Source of the DNA: Octopus vulgaris
Taxonomy: Eukaryota
Assembly: GCA_951406725.2 (NCBI GenBank)
Contig: OX597821.1
Coordinates: forward strand, 70,866,001 to 70,930,000
DNA length: 64,000 nt
Direction: 5' to 3'
Shown: positions 648-61,921 of the stretch, in pieces
Layout: every line of letters starts with the position of its first letter
Numbering within the stretch: position 1 is the stretch's first letter
Translations under genes and position numbers: made by a program
The notes under the pieces: model-generated
What the model saw: only the letters and a program-made list of their open reading frames with translations
What the model was told of the DNA's origin: nothing
Databases searched by the model: none

Positions 648-1051
648 TTGTTTGAATACATTTGCATCAAAATTGTTTGTTTGTAAGATTGTCCCATTTC
701 TATTTTGTTTAGGTTTCAGAAGAAGATGAAAGGGAAATGCCCATAATTTTAGCTGGACTTCGACGTTGGATTGGGAAAGAAGGACGGAAGAAACTGCTAG
801 TAATGTGTTGCGTTAGTTTGAAGTTGCGCATATTTCTCAGGGCCCTGATGATCTATAAAGGTCTAGTGACCTGTCCCTAGGGAGAGTTAACTATATTCTG
901 CTTAAAGTCATGAAGCCGGGGTTAGTTAGTTAACTGAACGGTTATTTCATTAGAGACCATGTAAGATGTTTTACATTTTTACATGGAATGTGGCCAATAA
1001 AATATGTATTTCTTTAGTGATTTCTTCTGTGTTTAAGCAATTATATATATA

Positions 1052-1232
1052 TAATTATTATTTGAGGGAATAAATCCAAACTTACAAGGAAAAATACTAA
1101 ATCAAATTTCACACAATATAATATATATATATATAATTAGAAAAAAACCCATCTTTTATCAATTCAAAATGAACAATTAAAAGTTTTAATTGCTCATTTT
1201 GAATTAATAAAAGGTGTTTATTTTCTCATTAT
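1052..1232 (-). mobile_element. Short hairpin element related to the 1721-2246 family
   Basis: AGGGAATAAATCCAAACTTACAAGGAAAAAT is the reverse complement of the family tail at ~2200-2235 and ~40450-40480. It is followed by an imperfect palindrome centred at 1183 (AATTCAAAATGAACAATTAAAA-G-TTTTAATTGCTCATTTTGAATT) and flanked by short (TA)n. Confidence 0.7.
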
Positions 1233-1252
1233 ATATATATATATATAAATAT

Positions 1253-1720
<468 letters not shown>

Positions 1721-1852
1721 TTATATTAAATTAGAGATAAAACCACTATTAGGCAAATCATACAATGAAAAACTTAAGCCAATACATAAGATTATTTAAT
1801 TTATATTATTTAAATATATAACAAAATTATTAAAAAACTATAATTAATATAA

Positions 1853-1916
1853 CACTACGATCGTTTCATGGCTGTTAATTTCTTTAAATTTTCGAGTTAC
1901 AGTCATTCATCAGGTG
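1853..1916 (-). ncRNA. Minimal type-I hammerhead ribozyme (antisense copy)
   Basis: Minus strand reads CAC-CUGAUGA-AUGACUGU...ACAGCCAU-GAAA-C-GAUC-G-UA-GUG. Confidence 0.7.
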
Positions 1917-1964
1917 GTTTAAATATTTAACTTGGCGAGGTTTAATCAAGTTAAATATTTAAGC

Positions 1965-2028
1965 CACCTGATGAATGACTGTAACTCGAAAATTTAAAGA
2001 AATTAACAGCCATGAAACGATCGTAGTG
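1965..2028 (+). ncRNA. Minimal type-I hammerhead ribozyme
   Basis: Stem I CAC(1965-67)/GUG(2026-28); CUGAUGA 1968-74; stem II AUGACUGU(1975-82)/ACAGCCAU(2006-13); GAAA 2014-17; stem III is a single C-G pair with palindromic GAUC loop; GUA cleavage triplet 2023-25. Confidence 0.75.
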
Positions 2029-2243
2029 TTATATTAATTATATTTTTTTAATAATTTTGTTATATATTTAAATAATATAAATTAAATAATCTCATGTATT
2101 GGCTTAAGTTTTTCATTGTATGATTTGCCTAATAGTGGTTTTATTTCTAATTTAATATAATATAATATTTTACTATAAAATTGGATTCAATCGTAAATCT
2201 GATTTTTTCCCTGTAAGTTTGGATCTATTCCCTAATATTTATT

Positions 2244-2310
<67 letters not shown>

Positions 2311-2351
2311 CATACATATATATATATATATATACATACATATATATATAT

Positions 2352-2396
<45 letters not shown>

Positions 2397-2401
2397 TATA
2401 C

Positions 2402-2434
<33 letters not shown>

Positions 2435-2440
2435 CGTATA

Positions 2441-2480
<40 letters not shown>

Positions 2481-8959: not shown

Positions 8960-10440
8960 CACACAGATATTACGGAAAGTGACATCGGGTACATCTGTTA
9001 TGTATGGATGATTAAAGATCTTTGGAAAGACCGAACGGGAAATAAATGGCCTAGTTTCAACAGTGCAGATATTCAGTAAGGACATCGGAATGGAATTTGG
9101 GACTGAAAAGTGTGGCTTGCTGTTAATACAAAGTAGAGTCGTCTGAACGTGTAGAGTTGCCCAACGGCGAGAAAATCAAGAATATTGAGACTAATGGATA
9201 TAAATATCTGGGGATTTTGGAATACGACAAAATCAAGGAAAGTGAAATGAAGGAAAGCTTTAGGTGAAAATATGCCAGAAGAGCCAAGTTAATTATGGGA
9301 AATAGACTCAATGGAAAAAAAGAAAATCAGGGCAATGAACACATGGACTGTTTTCTTAATGCGAGATGGCATAGGTGTTATTAAGTGGACAAAAAACGAA
9401 CTTGAGGAAATGGACAGGAAAACTAGAAAAGACATGACAATTAACAAGTTACTACATCCCAAAAGTGATACTGACAGACTGTATGTGCCTAGGAACAGGG
9501 GATGCAAAATCTGTGTTGTCAACGAGAAGAACATTCTGGGATGGTACATAAAAAAGCAGAATGAATCCTTCCTTGCCGCTGTTAGAATTAACAGTATAAT
9601 ACCTACCGAAAATGTGATGCACCCACAGACATTTCAGGAACAAGATGAAGAGGAAATAGAAAACAACTGGAAAATGAGACTACTGCATGGGCAATACCGC
9701 AGAGAAATCGAAGGAAAACACAAGATCAACACTTGGACATGGCTAATAAAAAGTGATCTGAAAGGGTACACTGATTCATCGATACGTAGCACCCAGGAAC
9801 AAGCTCCGAGAATTAATTACACCAATTCAAATAGATAAGAATAGTAAATTGCCTCTTTGTAGGATGAGTGGCAGCAGAAATGAAACAATCTCACATATTG
9901 TGAGTGAGTGTAGCAAGCTGGCCCAAAAGCACTTCAAAAGGAGGCATGATAACGTGGCTAAGTTCGTCCACTGGTGACCATGTGAAACGTACGGCCTGAA
10001 CAGAGCACGGAAATGGTACGAACATGAACCAGAAGGGGTCACCGAGAACAAGGAATTTTACAATCCAATGTGACTCCCTAATCGAGGCTCGAGGACCAGA
10101 TATTGTTGTGGTAGATGAGGAAAAAAAAAAAACCATGATCATAGATACTGCAATACCCAGAGATGCACGCATAAGTGACGAAGAACTAGAAATCATTGAA
10201 AAGTACAGACTACTAAAAGACAAAATTGCAAGAATATGGAGTACGTAGAAAGTGTCTGTCATTCAAGTAGATGTAGGGGCACTCGGAGCACTAACAACCA
10301 AGTTCGAGAAATATGTCAAAGAAATCGGAATTAACATTAGAGTAAAGCAAGCCCAAAACACTGCTCTGCTGGAGGCAGCTAGGATTTTGAGATTGGTATT
10401 TGGATACTGAATGTCTCCCACGATAAATAACGATCAAGTA
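8960..10440 (+). pseudogene. R4/Dong-type non-LTR retrotransposon ORF (RT C-terminus, CCHC knuckle, restriction-like endonuclease), disrupted
   Basis: Translates to HLLCMDD (YMDD-like), FSKDIGMEFGTEKC, YKYLGILE, WTKNELEEMDRKTRK..LHPKSDTDRLYVPR, CRM..NETISHIVSECSKLAQ..KRRHDNVAK, GPDIVVVD..MIIDTAIP..EKY and ARILRLVFGY*. Several stops and frameshifts. Confidence 0.9.
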
Positions 10441-25087: not shown

Positions 25088-25712
25088 GTGGTGAGAGGTT
25101 GAAACGTTATGGCACATCGTTAGCGAATGCCCGAAATTGGCATAACGCGGATACAAAAGCTCCATGACAATGTGGCAAGAATGATCGTGTAGGATCTCTG
25201 TGGAAATCACGGCCTACAGAGAACAAGAGCGTGGTATGAGAAAACTCCAGAAGGAATCACTGAGAATGAGAATTGCAAAAACCTTGTGGAATGCAATGAT
25301 TTGGTGCGATCGCCTGACCAGAACATTGTGGTAGTGAATAAAAAAGAAAGGACATGCCCCGGTGACAACAAGATCGATGTGATAGAAGAAGAAAAAATAA
25401 ACAACTATGACGATTTGAGGTGGGAAATACGAAGATTGTGGTCAATGAGGAGAGTAGACGAAATGCCAGAAGTAATTGGCGCACTTGGAAGTATCAGCAC
25501 TGAACTACCAGCATGGCTGAAAAAGATTGGTGCAAGGGTGAAGGGAGAACACTTACAAAAATCAGCATTGCTTGGAACTGCAAGAATTCTTCGCAGGGTT
25601 CTTGAAGCATGATCAATCAGTAAACAAGTGTCACCTTAGTCTGCGAGTTGTGGACAGCTGACACTTTCCATCATATCCAGCAAAGTAAGCTATGCGTTTT
25701 CATCACAAAACA
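25088..25712 (+). pseudogene. R4/Dong-type LINE 3' fragment (CCHC plus RLE plus 3'UTR) in (TAA)n
   Basis: ETLWHIVSECPKLA, ..NIVVVNKKERTC..EIRRLWSMRRV..VIGALGSI..LQKSALLGTARILRRVLEA*. Flanked on both sides by (AAT)n. Confidence 0.88.
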
Positions 25713-40002: not shown

Positions 40003-40041
<39 letters not shown>

Positions 40042-40079
40042 GAAATATTATTATTTCTAAATCTATCAAAGCGATACAT

Positions 40080-40271
40080 TCAGTAACAGTTCTCTAAAGT
40101 AATGGCTATCTGCCAACACAATGTGGCTGTCCCGAAATGGACGATGTAACTGTTGTTTTACCCCCAAGAAACATCGTTTCCAGCTGGACACACGACACAC
40201 TCTCTGTGTCCCCATATGGGACAACCACATTGTGTTGGCAGGTGGCCTTTACTCTAAAGAACTGTTACTGA
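40080..40271. repeat. Hairpin element with ~54-bp inverted arms
   Basis: TCAGTAACAGTTCTCTAAAGTAATGGCTATCTGCCAACACAATGTGGCTGTCCC (40080-40133) is inverted at 40218-40271. Confidence 0.85.
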
Positions 40272-40279
40272 TGTGCGTG

Positions 40280-40319
<40 letters not shown>

Positions 40320-40325
<6 letters not shown>

Positions 40326-40490
40326 TAAATTAGAGACAAAACCACTATTAGGCAAATCAAACAATGAAAAACTTAAGCCAATACATATTATTAATTTATA
40401 TTATTTGAATATATTTTACTATAAAATTGGATTCAATCCTAAATCTGATTTTTCCCTGTAAGTTTGGATTTATTCCCTAATATTTATTAT

Positions 40491-40533
<43 letters not shown>

Positions 40534-40697
40534 TAAATTAGAGACAAAACCACTATTAGGCAAATCAAACAATGAAAAACTTAAGCCAATACATATTATT
40601 AATTTATATTATTTGAATATATTTTACTATAAAATTGGATTCAATCCTAAATCTGATTTTTCCTGTAAGTTTGGATTTATTCCCTAATATTTATTAT

Positions 40698-40701
<4 letters not shown>
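40320..40701 (+). mobile_element. Two tandem internally deleted copies of the 1721-2246 family
   Basis: 40320-40494 and 40528-40701 each consist of the first ~90 bp of the left arm fused to the tail, separated by (TA)n. Confidence 0.88.
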
Positions 40702-40764
<63 letters not shown>

Positions 40765-40765
40765 T

Positions 40766-41188
40766 ATACAGTTTCTAGTTCGAATCACACGTGTCTCGAG
40801 ATGTGCCGAAGATTTTCTATTGTGGATATATTTGCGGTACTTAGGTCTGCTCAGGACTTAGTGCTTGCTTTTTCCATGGGTATGAGTAAGTATTTCACTT
40901 ATATCTCGCGTATTTGCCGCTGAAGAGGAGAAAATTCTTATGAATTAACTCCGAAATTGGACCAATACGGTAATAACGAATTTTTTAGAAATTTCTGTCG
41001 GTTTGTTTCGAGACACAAATTATAATGGTTATTGACAATTTTTGTTTCGGCATATTTGGCATTAGAATTTTTCTTTTGCCCTTACCTTGTAAATTATTTA
41101 TAAATTTAACATTTAAAGGTATTTTTTGATATGCTGGCCATTGATGAAATTTTTTTCTCGAAAAAAATTTTATCCTACATTAATTATA
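40766..41188 (+). mobile_element. ~420-bp non-coding element in (TA)n carrying a hammerhead ribozyme
   Basis: Unique sequence bounded by (TA)n on both sides, containing the motif at 40914-40973. Confidence 0.6.
40914..40973 (+). ncRNA. Type-I hammerhead ribozyme
   Basis: Stem I UUGCCG/CGGUAA; CUGAAGA 40920-26; stem II GGAG/CUCC extended by AAUUC/GAAUU; GAAA 40953-56; stem III UUGG-A-CCAA; AUA triplet, with cleavage predicted after 40967. Confidence 0.82.
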
Positions 41189-41399
41189 TATATATATATC
41201 TTTATAATGTCGTACAATGAATAAAATAACCGATTCCTTTATCGCTCTTTTTCTCGCACACAAAACCTCGATGTCGTTTGATTAAGTAAAATGTTACGAT
41301 ATTTCCTCCATATTATCCGGCAATGGTCTCTTTACAAACAGAATAGCAACTAGACTTCATTTCTTTATCTCAGTGTTTTTTTCTTGTTCAATATGCGAC

Positions 41400-51949: not shown

Positions 51950-53020
51950 TCGCGCGCAGTCGCAGTAGTTCGATATGGCGCTAGAAACCTGAAGTGGACA
52001 GAGGTGGAGCTAAAGGAGTTGAACAGGAAGTGAAGAAAACTCCTAACGATGCAGGGAGCCCATCATCCACGTAGACACTGATCGCCTATGAAGAAAGCAA
52101 ATGGAGGAATGGGACCGATAAGTGTGGAAGACTGCGTACGTATCGAACTCGAGAGCTTAATGAGAAACCTAGCCCAAAGTAAGGAAACCTTGCTAGTGTC
52201 AGTTAGGAATGAGGGAGTATTGAAAGCAGAGAAAAATGGAAAAACAAAGGAAGAAGTAGAAAAAGGACATGAAGAAGCATTACGCAACAAGTGATGAATT
52301 CCAAGTAGCCACAATAGAAATTGCTGGAAAACATTGGTGGGATCGCCTAAGGAATCGAACACTGAAAATGGAGATTGGGAGCAGTGTGCTGGCAACGCAA
52401 GACCAACTTTTGGCCACGAACTGGAGGGTCAACCGTAGGAATGAGCAAGTGTATCTACTGTGCTCCATCTGTAATACAGTGAACGAATCTATTGCTCATA
52501 TCAACGAACGAATGCCCTAGAATTGCCCAAAACCACTACGAGTCGTGGCGACGCGATTAGGTATCAAAAGTTGTACGTTGGAAACTGTGTCAAAAGTGGG
52601 GACTAGAGAGAGGCAAGACGTGGTATGAGCAGAAACTGCAGAGACTGATGGAGCCGCAGTCTTGCAAAATCCTCTGGGATCTTCCAGTGCAAACAGATCA
52701 GGTACTTGGCCATTACAGACCTATTGGACCTATACAGCACCACGAGCTGTATAGTGGATGCTGCATTTCCCTTTGACCCACGAATAGTCAAGAAGGAAGG
52801 TGAAAGAAAAGATAAATACATCACTCTTAAGTACGAAATAGCCAGGCTATGGAAAATGAAGGTGAAGATACTGCCAATTATTGTCGGGTCCTTGGGAACA
52901 GTATTAAAAGGCGTCAAGAGGAATATAAAGGATATTGTAATAAAGCGCCCAGTAGAACTGTTACAAAAGGTTTGCCTCCTTTGCACAGCTAGAATAATCA
53001 GGAAAGTATTAGATAGCTGA
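51950..53020 (+). pseudogene. R4/Dong-type LINE 3' ~1.1 kb, disrupted
   Basis: RAVAVVRYGARNLKWTEVELKELNRK*RKLLTM, GGMGPISVED, LATQDQLLAT, CSICNTVNESIAHI, CIVDAAFPFDPRIVKKEGERKDKY..LQKVCLLCTARIIRKVLDS*. Confidence 0.9.
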
Positions 53021-60632: not shown

Positions 60633-61921
60633 TTGGGTTGGCAACTAAGTCCTCACCGTTTTTTTTTTTATTTAAATTTTTAAAAGGTTTAATAAAAAAA
60701 ATAACAACTAATTAATCAATAATGTATTCACCCTTGTTGTTTACAACTTCTTCCCAACGTTCAACAAGATTTTCAATACCTCGTTGGCAGAAATCACCTG
60801 ATTTCGACTCGAAAAATTGATCCAACCAAGCTCTCAATTCTGCATCAGTATTGGACGAAACTCCGCGCATAGCATTTGAAAGATATCGAAAGAGGTGGAA
60901 ATCCGTTGGTGCCAAATCAGAAGAGTACAGCGGATATGGCAACACTTCCCCGCCATGCGTTTGAATGGCTTCCTTGGTCATATTGGCGATATGAGAGCGG
61001 GCGTTGTCGTGCAGCACAAGAACCCCATGCTGGTGATTAGGTCTTTTCTCTTGAATAGCCGTGTTGAGTCGTTCCATCTGCTGAACATAGAGTTCCATGT
61101 TGACTGTTTGGTTCTGTTCAAACAATTCGTAATGGATAATCCCTTCCCAGTCCCACCATACGCACAACATCGTTTTACGCGGATGAAGATCTTGTTTCAC
61201 ACGCGGTGTCGCTTGTTTACCGGGGGCTATGCTATTCCTTACGCTGCTTCATATTGATGCACAGGCACCATTTTTCATCGCCAGTAACAATTCGGTAAAG
61301 AAATCGTTGCTTGTGTCCATGAGTTGAGTGGTGACTAGAAAGCAAACCAGCAGAGATTGTGGCTTGTTGATTTTTGTTGTTGTCACTTAAAGCATGCGGA
61401 ACACATGCTCCATAATTCTGAACCTTTCCCGTCAAGTGAAGATGCTTTTCTATAGCAGTGTGGGAGCGTTCCATTTTCTCTGACAGTTCCCTTGTCGTCT
61501 GGTGAGAATTTTTGTGCAAAAGTTGGTTTAATCGCTCTTCATCGAACTCAACTGGACGGCCAGAACGAGGTGTGTCTTTCAGGTCAAAATTTCCATTTTT
61601 GCACTTGGCATTCAAATCAGGAGCGGTTCTTTCATCTATGGCACCCTCTCCATATACAGCACAAATGTCCCGAGCAGCTTTTGCGGCCTTAGAATCTTGA
61701 TTAAAAGCAAAAAGGAGGTGTCAAAAATGCTCGTTTTTCTTAACTTGACATTCCGTTTTAATGATCTTAAAATAAACAAAAATTAACTAGAAAAAAAAAA
61801 AAACAAAACAGATTTCAAAATGATTCAAAAATAGAATTCTCGAAAAAATAGATTCCAAAATTTAAAAACGCAATAAATTCCAAAATTTAAAAAAACCGCG
61901 GGAACTTAGTTGCCAACCCAA
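60633..61921 (-). mobile_element. Full-length (1289 bp) mariner transposon, mellifera-subfamily-like, TA target-site duplication
   Basis: TA|TTGGGTTGGCAACTAAGT ... ACTTAGTTGCCAACCCAA|TA, with an internal transposase. Confidence 0.95.
60712..61756 (-). pseudogene. Mariner D,D34D transposase, inactivated
   Basis: (ACG)ECQVKKNEHF*HLL..PRSGRP..CVPHAL..IVTGDEKW..HPRKTMLCVWWD..HDNARSH-[34 aa]-YSSDLAPTDFHLF. Start codon is lost, there are two in-frame stops, and a frameshift lies near 61200-61232. Confidence 0.93.

What the first reader, a model, noticed from the sequence alone, without database searches (positions are those of the whole stretch)
1721..2246. Giant hairpin element carrying a sense/antisense pair of hammerhead ribozymes
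Seen: 214-bp near-perfect inverted arms around a 12-nt loop, an ~85-bp unique tail and (TA)n on both sides. Each arm has a complete minimal hammerhead core (CUGAUGA, 7/8-bp stem II, GAAA, C-GAUC-G, GUA), one per strand. Established: Penelope-like elements carry minimal type-I hammerheads with a 1-bp stem III and palindromic loop, thought to act as dimers, and often have inverted 5'-truncated pseudo-LTRs. Inference: this is a young non-autonomous, ribozyme-bearing Penelope-dependent element that could be mistaken for a MITE. A transcript from either strand would hold one ribozyme plus its full antisense, so cleavage competes with long dsRNA formation.
Basis: partly seen in the sequence, partly recalled or inferred. 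Interest (0 to 1): 0.82.

Follow-up and report, generated by a model that had tools for sequence, protein, structure and literature searches.

The report
Head-to-head Penelope-type hammerhead insertion
This hairpin is two back-to-back copies of a very common short repeat that carries a predicted self-cutting RNA motif, likely pasted into a TA microsatellite by the enzyme of a Penelope-type jumping gene, so it is an ordinary example of a known insertion shape rather than a new ribozyme switch.

Summary
The hairpin and both hammerhead cores are real, but the hairpin is not the mobile unit. It is two head-to-head copies of an abundant short repeat. The left copy (1949 to 1717) stops at a short 3' end. 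The right copy (1947 to 2246) runs 82 nt further, to a long 3' end. The '12-nt loop' is ordinary family sequence and the 'unique tail' is the family's 3' end. Two more insertions in the window show the same short-end/long-end anatomy with other arm lengths and no ribozyme. Public contigs show 5' decay, (TA)n junctions and five other inversion points. An inverted 5'-truncated copy, a tail and a (TA)n target are the published footprint of Penelope-like elements, and opposite-strand hammerhead pairs were reported in 2014. Family variation spares the core except N7 and includes one compensatory stem II change. In a read-through transcript the antisense arm is made first and the ribozyme fold has about zero predicted probability, so there is no real competition. 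No partner ORF was found, so solo pLTR versus non-autonomous unit stays open. The scan noted this anatomy before on other DNA of this genome.

The parts
1717..1949 (-). Left copy of the repeat unit: from the apparent fixed 5' end (1949) to the short 3' end (1717); 233 nt; includes the so-called loop
   Evidence: (family depth continues through 1937-1952 with no variant rows; loose ends behind 1949 begin TATATA in 3 contigs)
1947..2246 (+). Right copy: starts at unit nt 16 and runs to the long 3' end; 300 nt
1935..1949 (.). Inversion junction: 12 nt present only in the left copy, plus a 3-nt CAA microhomology (1947-1949) shared by both copies
   Evidence: (depth about 0 at 1935-1945 in the right-arm frame)
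1965..2028 (+). Minimal type I hammerhead motif: stem I 1965-67/2026-28, CUGAUGA 1968-74, stem II 1975-82/2006-13, GAAA 2014-17, 8-nt palindrome 2017-24, predicted cut after 2025
   Evidence: family variants; cleavage untested
1853..1916 (-). The same hammerhead motif in the left copy, predicted cut after 1856
2165..2246 (+). PLE-type 'tail' between the short and long 3' ends (82 nt), with an 11-bp stem-loop 2177-87/2196-2206
   Evidence: ((TA)n loose ends behind 2164 in 38, 23 and 27 contigs), 33, 39, 40
1597..1716 (.). (TA)n target microsatellite, left
2247..2480 (.). (TA)n/(TACA)n target microsatellite, right
40311..40500 (+). Second insertion of the family (C1): about 100 nt inverted from the short end, joined through ATAT microhomology straight to the tail; no hammerhead
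40519..40707 (+). Tandem duplicate of C1 (C2), same junction, one base shorter
1042..1232 (-). Diverged relative (copy B): 41-nt arms (85% complementary) meeting 1 nt apart, plus a tail ending in the same motif, in (TA)n; no hammerhead
   Evidence: (I18, I20)

Best explanation
The hairpin is one insertion of two head-to-head copies of an abundant, non-coding repeat bearing a predicted hammerhead, likely written into a (TA)n microsatellite by a Penelope-like RT/GIY-YIG enzyme priming from both cut strands. Shown: two 3' ends 82 nt apart, each abutting TA-rich repeat sequence; decay of family depth towards the 5' end; different inversion points in different copies; the same short-end-inverted plus long-end-direct anatomy in 3 of 3 independent insertions in the window; variation that spares the hammerhead core except N7. 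Inferred, by analogy with the anole PLE studied in vitro: the protein nicks both strands of AT-rich DNA; one 3'-OH starts cDNA at the short site (2164-equivalent) and the other at the long site (2246); both cDNAs run towards the RNA's 5' end and join at a few bases of microhomology. Here both ran almost full length and met at CAA/TTG, so both copies kept the ribozyme and the product is a near-perfect 218-bp palindrome. In C1/C2 and B they stopped early and the ribozyme was lost. The ribozyme's selected role is likely in the template RNA (dimer- or protein-assisted processing). At this locus it is predicted to be locked in dsRNA if transcribed through. The template is either a short non-autonomous unit with its own 5' end at 1949 (about 55%) or the pseudo-LTR/5' part of an autonomous PLE not seen here (about 45%).
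For: Anatomy in the window. Family evidence: 8451, 2588, 2537 and 552 contigs laid in four runs; X1 depth peaks at 2133-43 (3.19M) and 2210-20 (1.28M), falling to 0.19M at 1968-78; (TA)n loose ends behind 2164 in 38, 23 and 27 contigs and ATT/TA-rich ones behind 2239 in 33 and 22. Five opposite-strand joints, each in one contig and each at a different pair of positions (3, 2). Junction depth of 0, 5.7, 0.7 and 0 and 80 against 38,857 just before it (X3). Ribozyme selection: in X3 the only core position with a variant at 2% or more is N7 (1909; 18,389 of 117,367; 24 contigs); variants at 2 of 38 paired or core positions against 9 of 26 free ones (Fisher p=0.003); the two are the partners of one stem II pair and appear at the same depth (10.7) in X19, read as one contig, U-A to C-G. 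Literature: inverted 5'-truncated copy, tail and (TA)n bias (PMC8557442 passages); dual minimal hammerheads 100-700 bp apart on opposite strands (PMC4209133); both strands cut and extended, two internal RT start sites delimiting the tail, predicted dimer, ORF starting at stem II (PMC11167929). An ATG also sits at the first base of stem II here (1975).
Against: No PLE protein was linked to the family: 150 of 211 complexity-filtered reading frames of the window gave only mariner domains in Pfam, and no genome was held. The tail is 82 nt, against the 30-40 bp usually given. The frame from the stem II ATG closes after 20 codons, unlike the anole PLE. The hammerhead lacks the G10.1-C11.1 pair and the extra base of the published consensus, and its fold is weak: stems I and II have probability 0.5-0.8 in isolation but under 0.1 in the whole unit, and monomer stem III is 0.002. 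The core alone is not significantly better conserved than the 3' flank (0 of 12 against 12 of 132, p=0.34), and the 5' flank shows no variants either. The constrained/free classes were drawn after seeing the data, and the variants come from a few subfamilies. Contig depth is not a copy number.
Confidence: 0.82

Rival explanations
1. The whole hairpin is a dedicated non-autonomous element whose transcript holds a ribozyme and its antisense as a regulatory switch.
For: Both arms keep an intact core and are 98% complementary. Of the five other opposite-strand joints, four have one side within about 20 nt of the unit's 5' end (1947, 1957 and 1960; 1939), so long hairpins do recur.
Against: This junction is near-absent in five deep runs. 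Other insertions invert elsewhere or lack the ribozyme. The antisense arm precedes the ribozyme on both strands, and hammerhead pairs have probability 0.000 in read-through RNA, whose fold is -319 kcal/mol against -1.4 for the constrained ribozyme fold.
Confidence: 0.05
2. A retrozyme: the unit propagates as a tandem array or circular RNA, and this locus is a fragment of it.
For: Size (about 315 nt), low GC (22%), non-coding, type I hammerhead with a palindromic helix III; animal retrozymes are proposed PLE derivatives (bioRxiv 10.64898/2026.07.22.740005, part 1 of 5; PMC7229834 passages).
Against: No head-to-tail joint from the 3' end back to the 5' end is listed in either lay. The 3 contigs that pass the 5' end go into TATATA and then differ from each other and from the tail. 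A linear unit with one ribozyme cannot be cut at both ends to circularise. The hammerhead is of the minimal PLE type.
Confidence: 0.08
3. A MITE or foldback DNA transposon whose long TIRs happen to hold a hammerhead-like string, or a palindrome made after insertion by fold-back repair.
For: Long near-perfect inverted repeat in TA context; the 3-bp CAA/TTG fold-back with a 12-nt loop is what snap-back priming would leave.
Against: The ends are asymmetric (82 nt of family sequence lie outside the repeat on one side only); arm lengths vary; depth decays 5'-ward; motif chance is 4 of 40,000 or less. Fold-back of the left copy alone cannot supply the tail. No similarity to the window's mariner remnant beyond one low-complexity match at E 0.008.
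Confidence: 0.05

Closest known systems
Minimal hammerheads in pseudo-LTRs of metazoan PLEs (Cervera and De la Pena 2014, PMC4209133; parts 1-2 of 4 read)
   Same: Type I core, long helix II (7-8 bp), short helix I, palindromic 15.2-16.2/loop 3, predicted dimer; mostly solo motifs from truncated PLEs; dual motifs 100-700 bp apart on opposite strands already reported in Schistosoma mansoni.
   Different: A10.1-U11.1 instead of the highly conserved G-C, no extra base after A9, 23-nt loop II; no ORF-bearing copy seen here.
EN+ PLE insertions with an inverted 5'-truncated copy and tail (Craig et al. 2021, PMC8557442; passages; also PMC8969392 passages)
   Same: Inverted 5'-truncated copy, tail at one end, heavy 5' truncation, (TA)n target (Hydra and Naiad clades; microsatellite bias also discussed for Neptune).
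   Different: Tail of 82 nt rather than 30-40; clade cannot be assigned without the protein. Naiads lack canonical hammerheads, so a Hydra or Neptune partner is more likely (inference).
Poseidon element PAc of Anolis carolinensis (Frangieh et al. 2024, PMC11167929; parts 1-2 of 4 read)
   Same: Two internal RT start sites downstream of the hammerhead delimit the tail; AT-rich target; both strands cut and extended; start codon at stem II; a stem-loop near the start sites.
   Different: In PAc the sequence after the ribozyme is the ORF and the start sites lie 111-118 nt into it; here it is non-coding (18% GC) and the ends lie about 140 and 220 nt after the cut site.
Animal non-LTR retrozymes (PMC7229834 passages; bioRxiv 10.64898/2026.07.22.740005 part 1 of 5)
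   Same: Short, low-GC, protein-free, type I hammerhead, presumed PLE-dependent.
   Different: No tandem arrangement seen; minimal rather than canonical hammerhead; no evidence of a circle.

Membership tests
Minimal type I hammerhead (PLE type) | Core CUGANGA...GAAA...UH in type I order | tested here: met
   N7 is the only core position that varies in X3
Minimal type I hammerhead (PLE type) | Helix II of 7-8 bp with covariation | tested here: met
   7 of 8 pairs; one compensatory U-A to C-G change at the outer pair, both halves at equal depth in X19; a single pair only
Minimal type I hammerhead (PLE type) | Palindromic helix III/loop 3 allowing a dimer | tested here: met
   8-nt perfect palindrome 2017-2024, duplex -10.0 kcal/mol; variant at 1859 in only 48 of 38,804 depth in X3
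Minimal type I hammerhead (PLE type) | Helix I of 4-5 bp | tested here: inconclusive
   3 contiguous pairs; 5 if one C is bulged (read by eye)
Minimal type I hammerhead (PLE type) | G10.1-C11.1 pair and an extra base after A9 (consensus traits in PMC4209133, not part of its search descriptor) | tested here: not met
   A1975-U2013 directly after A9; no family variant listed at either position
Minimal type I hammerhead (PLE type) | Self-cleavage at the NUH site | not testable with these tools
   only contigs were available; no raw RNA reads
EN+ Penelope-like element insertion | 5' truncation with an inverted 5'-truncated copy | tested here: met
   3 of 3 window insertions; 5 opposite-strand joints; depth decay
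EN+ Penelope-like element insertion | Optional tail defined by two fixed 3' ends | tested here: met
   ends at 2164 and about 2239-2246; 82 nt, longer than the usual 30-40
EN+ Penelope-like element insertion | Hammerhead in the terminal repeat; AT-rich or microsatellite target | tested here: met
EN+ Penelope-like element (autonomous) | ORF with PLE RT and GIY-YIG endonuclease attached to this end | tested here: inconclusive
   none in the window (150 of 211 frames scanned); no genome held; loose ends give only 30 letters
Non-autonomous PLE derivative | Short unit with its own fixed 5' end and no ORF | tested here: inconclusive
   3 contigs end at 1949 into TATATA; 4 contigs in X4 give a mixed upstream consensus (agreement 0.7); a pLTR transcription start could give the same end
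Non-LTR retrozyme | Head-to-tail tandem units, each with a hammerhead | tested here: not met
   no such joint listed, none in the window; a (TA)n spacer could hide it
Non-LTR retrozyme | Expressed circular RNA | not testable with these tools
   contigs only
MITE | Uniform copies bounded by terminal inverted repeats at both ends | tested here: not met
   asymmetric tail, variable arms and junctions
MITE | TIRs shared with a transposase-coding partner | tested here: inconclusive
   no match to the window's mariner remnant; rest of the genome not available

The most novel reading that the evidence does not exclude
The family is a linear, roughly 315-nt, hammerhead-bearing non-autonomous partner of a PLE (a 'Penelope SINE', neither a tandem retrozyme nor a truncated pLTR). 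It is inserted by near-obligate twin priming from two start sites 82 nt apart that bracket a conserved stem-loop, and it carries a variant A10.1-U11.1 hammerhead under selection. Its many head-to-head insertions would be a standing source of long dsRNA for A-to-I editing, and the short RNA would be a minimal ready-made template for testing how PLEs build inverted ends and tails.
Probability: 0.3. Interest if true: 0.5.

Novelty: new member of a known kind. Interest (0 to 1): 0.27.

Why it matters
The locus itself is most likely inert debris. Its value is as a clean natural footprint. It shows, with C1/C2 and B beside it, that the inverted copy starts at the short 3' end and the direct copy at the long one in all three insertions of this window, as two-site, two-strand priming predicts. 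How PLEs make inverted ends and tails is still called an open question in PMC8557442 (passages), and a search for 'Penelope' with 'twin priming' listed 3 papers, none about this by their titles and abstract openings. It also warns annotators that such palindromes are not MITEs or miRNA precursors.

Tried and rejected
Whole genome: none held, so no assembly-based family consensus or partner search. Rfam: no hammerhead family hit; only sub-threshold miRNA and low-complexity matches. Metagenome pattern scan: 2 hits, both on the antisense strand of bacterial ORFs that read like NADH dehydrogenase subunit D (name from my reading of the translation), rejected as chance. Pfam on 150 of 211 filtered frames (of 780 frames of 45 aa or more): only mariner domains. 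Sequencing runs: no RNA holder listed on record; X8, X14 and X19 are only guessed to be RNA and hold contigs, so expression, strand and cleavage could not be read. A possible editing hint was considered and not counted as evidence: 10 of the 14 differences seen in X19 but under 2% in X3 are A>G or T>C, most from one contig of depth 2; error, alleles or genomically edited copies can explain it. In one search the lack of variants in CUGAUGA was not trusted, because the private change at 1963 probably clips alignments there; one search was used instead. Two joints in table 5c (2196/2150, 2229/2112) have no stated kind and were left out of the count of five. Copy number from contig depth was not attempted beyond 'very abundant'. 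Sequence look-ups in the scan's notes found no look-alike. No paper on A10.1-U11.1 was found; the PAc supplements held as text (3 files, 7,325 characters) had no match for the core motif, so its hammerhead could not be compared base by base; figures were not visible. Unconstrained cofolding of two ribozyme copies did not give the dimer fold; the constrained dimer script crashed and that part was not redone.

Full report
Observation. The sequence is as described. The arms are 1717-1934 and 1947-2164, 98% complementary with four mismatches, 12 nt apart, followed by 82 nt of further sequence and set between TA microsatellites. Each arm holds a type I hammerhead core: CUGAUGA at 1968-1974, stem II 1975-82/2006-13 with 7 of 8 pairs and a 23-nt loop, GAAA, C-GAUC-G and GUA, with a predicted cut after 2025, mirrored at 1913-1856 on the minus strand. 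Positions 2017-2024 form a perfect 8-nt palindrome, which would give a dimer helix III of -10.0 kcal/mol. A relaxed descriptor matched 4 of 40,000 shuffles of the unit, none with a palindromic helix III, and 0 of 30 window shuffles. Rfam has no matching hammerhead model.

What the unit is. No genome was held, so I used the window and public runs. The stretch 1935-2246 is held wholly or partly by 20 of 24 listed runs, from 9 studies and 4 organism labels. Laid on the right arm and tail, four runs gave 8451, 2588, 2537 and 552 contigs. Depth peaks just inside 2164 and again in the tail, falls about 17-fold to the hammerhead in X1, and is 0, 5.7, 0.7 and 0 over the 'loop'. Loose ends behind 2164 are (TA)n in 38, 23 and 27 contigs, and those behind 2239 are ATT/TA-rich in 33 and 22, so the family has two 3' ends. 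Laid on the left arm, depth carries on through the loop (38,857 at 1937-44, 13,315 at 1945-52, 80 at 1953-60 in X3) with no variants listed, and the three contigs shown leaving at 1949 run into TATATA and then into different sequence. So the loop is family sequence belonging to the left copy, the left copy is a 233-nt unit from an apparent 5' end at 1949 to the short 3' end, and the right copy begins at unit nt 16 through a 3-nt CAA microhomology and runs to the long 3' end. The tools warn that contig depth is no copy number; I use it only for the shape of the profile.

The hairpin is one outcome among many. The window has two more insertions. C1 (40311-40500, duplicated in tandem as C2) has about 100 nt inverted from the same short end, joined through ATAT directly to the tail. 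Copy B (1042-1232, minus strand, diverged) has 41-nt arms and a tail ending in the same motif. Neither has a hammerhead. In 3 of 3 independent insertions the inverted copy starts at the short end and the direct copy at the long end. Public contigs add five opposite-strand joints, each in one contig and each at different positions: 1947/1997, 1957/2120 and 1960/2036, 1801/1876 and 1865/1939. Four of these have one side near the 5' end, so other long hairpins exist, but this locus's junction is not amplified. Against the family, 1838 is private to the left arm and 2093 and 2145 to the right; 1963 is inferred private to the right because 1918 shows no variant. Both arms share the minor base at 2120/1761 (the family has the other base at 66-87%), which fits one template or one subfamily and a little decay since insertion.

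Is the ribozyme under selection? In X3, whose 25 variant calls at 2% or more are all shown, the only core position that varies is N7 (18,389 of 117,367 depth, 24 contigs). Variants fall on 2 of 38 paired or core positions and on 9 of 26 free ones (p=0.003), and those two are the partners of the outer stem II pair, changing U-A to C-G, at identical depth in X19. Against this: the core alone is not better conserved than the 3' flank (0 of 12 against 12 of 132, p=0.34), the 5' flank is also invariant, I drew the classes after seeing the data, and a few subfamilies supply the variants. The motif lacks the G10.1-C11.1 pair and the extra base after A9 that PMC4209133 lists as recurring traits, and its predicted fold is weak inside the whole unit. 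I rate it a real but possibly slow, helper-dependent ribozyme; cleavage is untested.

Mechanism. PMC8557442 (passages) and PMC8969392 (passages) describe PLE insertions as 5'-truncated, often with an inverted truncated copy and a tail, with a (TA)n bias in some clades. PMC4209133 (parts 1-2 of 4) reports dual minimal hammerheads 100-700 bp apart on opposite strands in Schistosoma. PMC11167929 (parts 1-2 of 4) shows that a purified anole PLE protein cuts and extends both strands of AT-rich DNA, starts cDNA at two internal sites that delimit the tail, is predicted to dimerise, and needs protein for hammerhead cleavage. The simplest reading, which is inference, is that the two target 3'-OH ends primed cDNA at the short and long sites, and that both cDNAs ran nearly to the RNA's 5' end and joined at CAA/TTG. 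Fold-back of the left copy alone cannot supply the tail. What the template is remains open. A fixed 5' end 19 nt upstream of the core and a non-coding, 18%-GC downstream part favour a short non-autonomous unit. Four contigs in X4 with a mixed upstream consensus, the thin support for the 5' end, and the ATG at the start of stem II as in the anole element leave a solo pLTR nearly as likely. No PLE protein lies in the window (150 of 211 filtered frames scanned).

The proposed switch. Because the copies are head to head, a read-through transcript of either strand makes the antisense arm first. The hairpin folds at -319 and -312 kcal/mol against -1.4 and -1.2 for the constrained ribozyme, and all hammerhead pairs have probability 0.000 in both full read-through RNAs and in the nascent + strand RNA ending at 2035. 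Cleavage would not compete; the RNA would simply be long dsRNA. Only transcripts starting at the apex would expose a ribozyme. Expression could not be tested.

Novelty. The parts and their arrangement are in print. The scan's own notes report the same two-ended, head-to-head, (TA)n-targeted anatomy for other hammerhead families of this genome, including single palindromes judged to be ordinary PLE ends. These are unchecked AI notes and not independent support; my reading was written down before I saw them. Two of them name the genome as octopus, which fits my recall of its SINEs but was not tested; PMC13282606 (passages) lists 31 recently active PLE families in Octopus vulgaris and does not mention hammerheads. 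This particular family had no look-alike in the notes. Literature searches were made, seen as listings. Verdict: a new member of a known kind, interest 0.27. The long tail, the A-U closing pair and the possible fixed 5' end are the only points a specialist might follow up.

Noticed in passing
window 40913-40973 (+): A second, unrelated hammerhead: CUGAAGA core, G10.1-C11.1, near-palindromic longer helix III, 6-bp stem I, predicted cut after 40967. It lies in an AT-rich element of about 420 nt (40770-41190) between TA runs, right beside C1/C2; likely another PLE end. No ORF in its six frames.
   Followed up: partly
window 40080-40275: Foldback of about 200 nt (-117 kcal/mol for 40030-40295) next to TA/TG runs; MITE-like or rod-like; no hammerhead match.
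   Followed up: no
window 40311-40707: C1 and C2 are a tandem duplicate of one inverted insertion including its junction, differing by one base and separated by (TA)n; probably unequal exchange in the microsatellite or an assembly duplicate.
   Followed up: partly
window 2177-2206: 11-bp stem-loop in the tail; two of the three family substitutions listed for the tail (2188, 2193) lie in its loop, while 1-2 nt length variants occur in the T run at 2202-2203. Candidate signal for the RT start sites; not evident in copy B.
   Followed up: partly
window 2199-2220: CTGAT, a pyrimidine run and GTAAG-T read either as branch point plus acceptor or as a GTAAGT donor; the motif is kept in diverged copy B. 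May be a retained PLE intron boundary.
   Followed up: no
window 1757-1875 (run X19): One depth-2 contig carries a cluster of T>C changes (A>G on the ribozyme strand) nearly absent from the DNA run X3; looks like hyper-editing but is too thin to count.
   Followed up: partly
window 60715-61720 (-): Mariner transposase remnants (Pfam Transposase_1, HTH_48).
   Followed up: no
window 9293-9838, 25193-25612, 52649-53020: Reading frames that look by eye like C-terminal fragments of LINE ORFs; no Pfam hit; label from recall.
   Followed up: no
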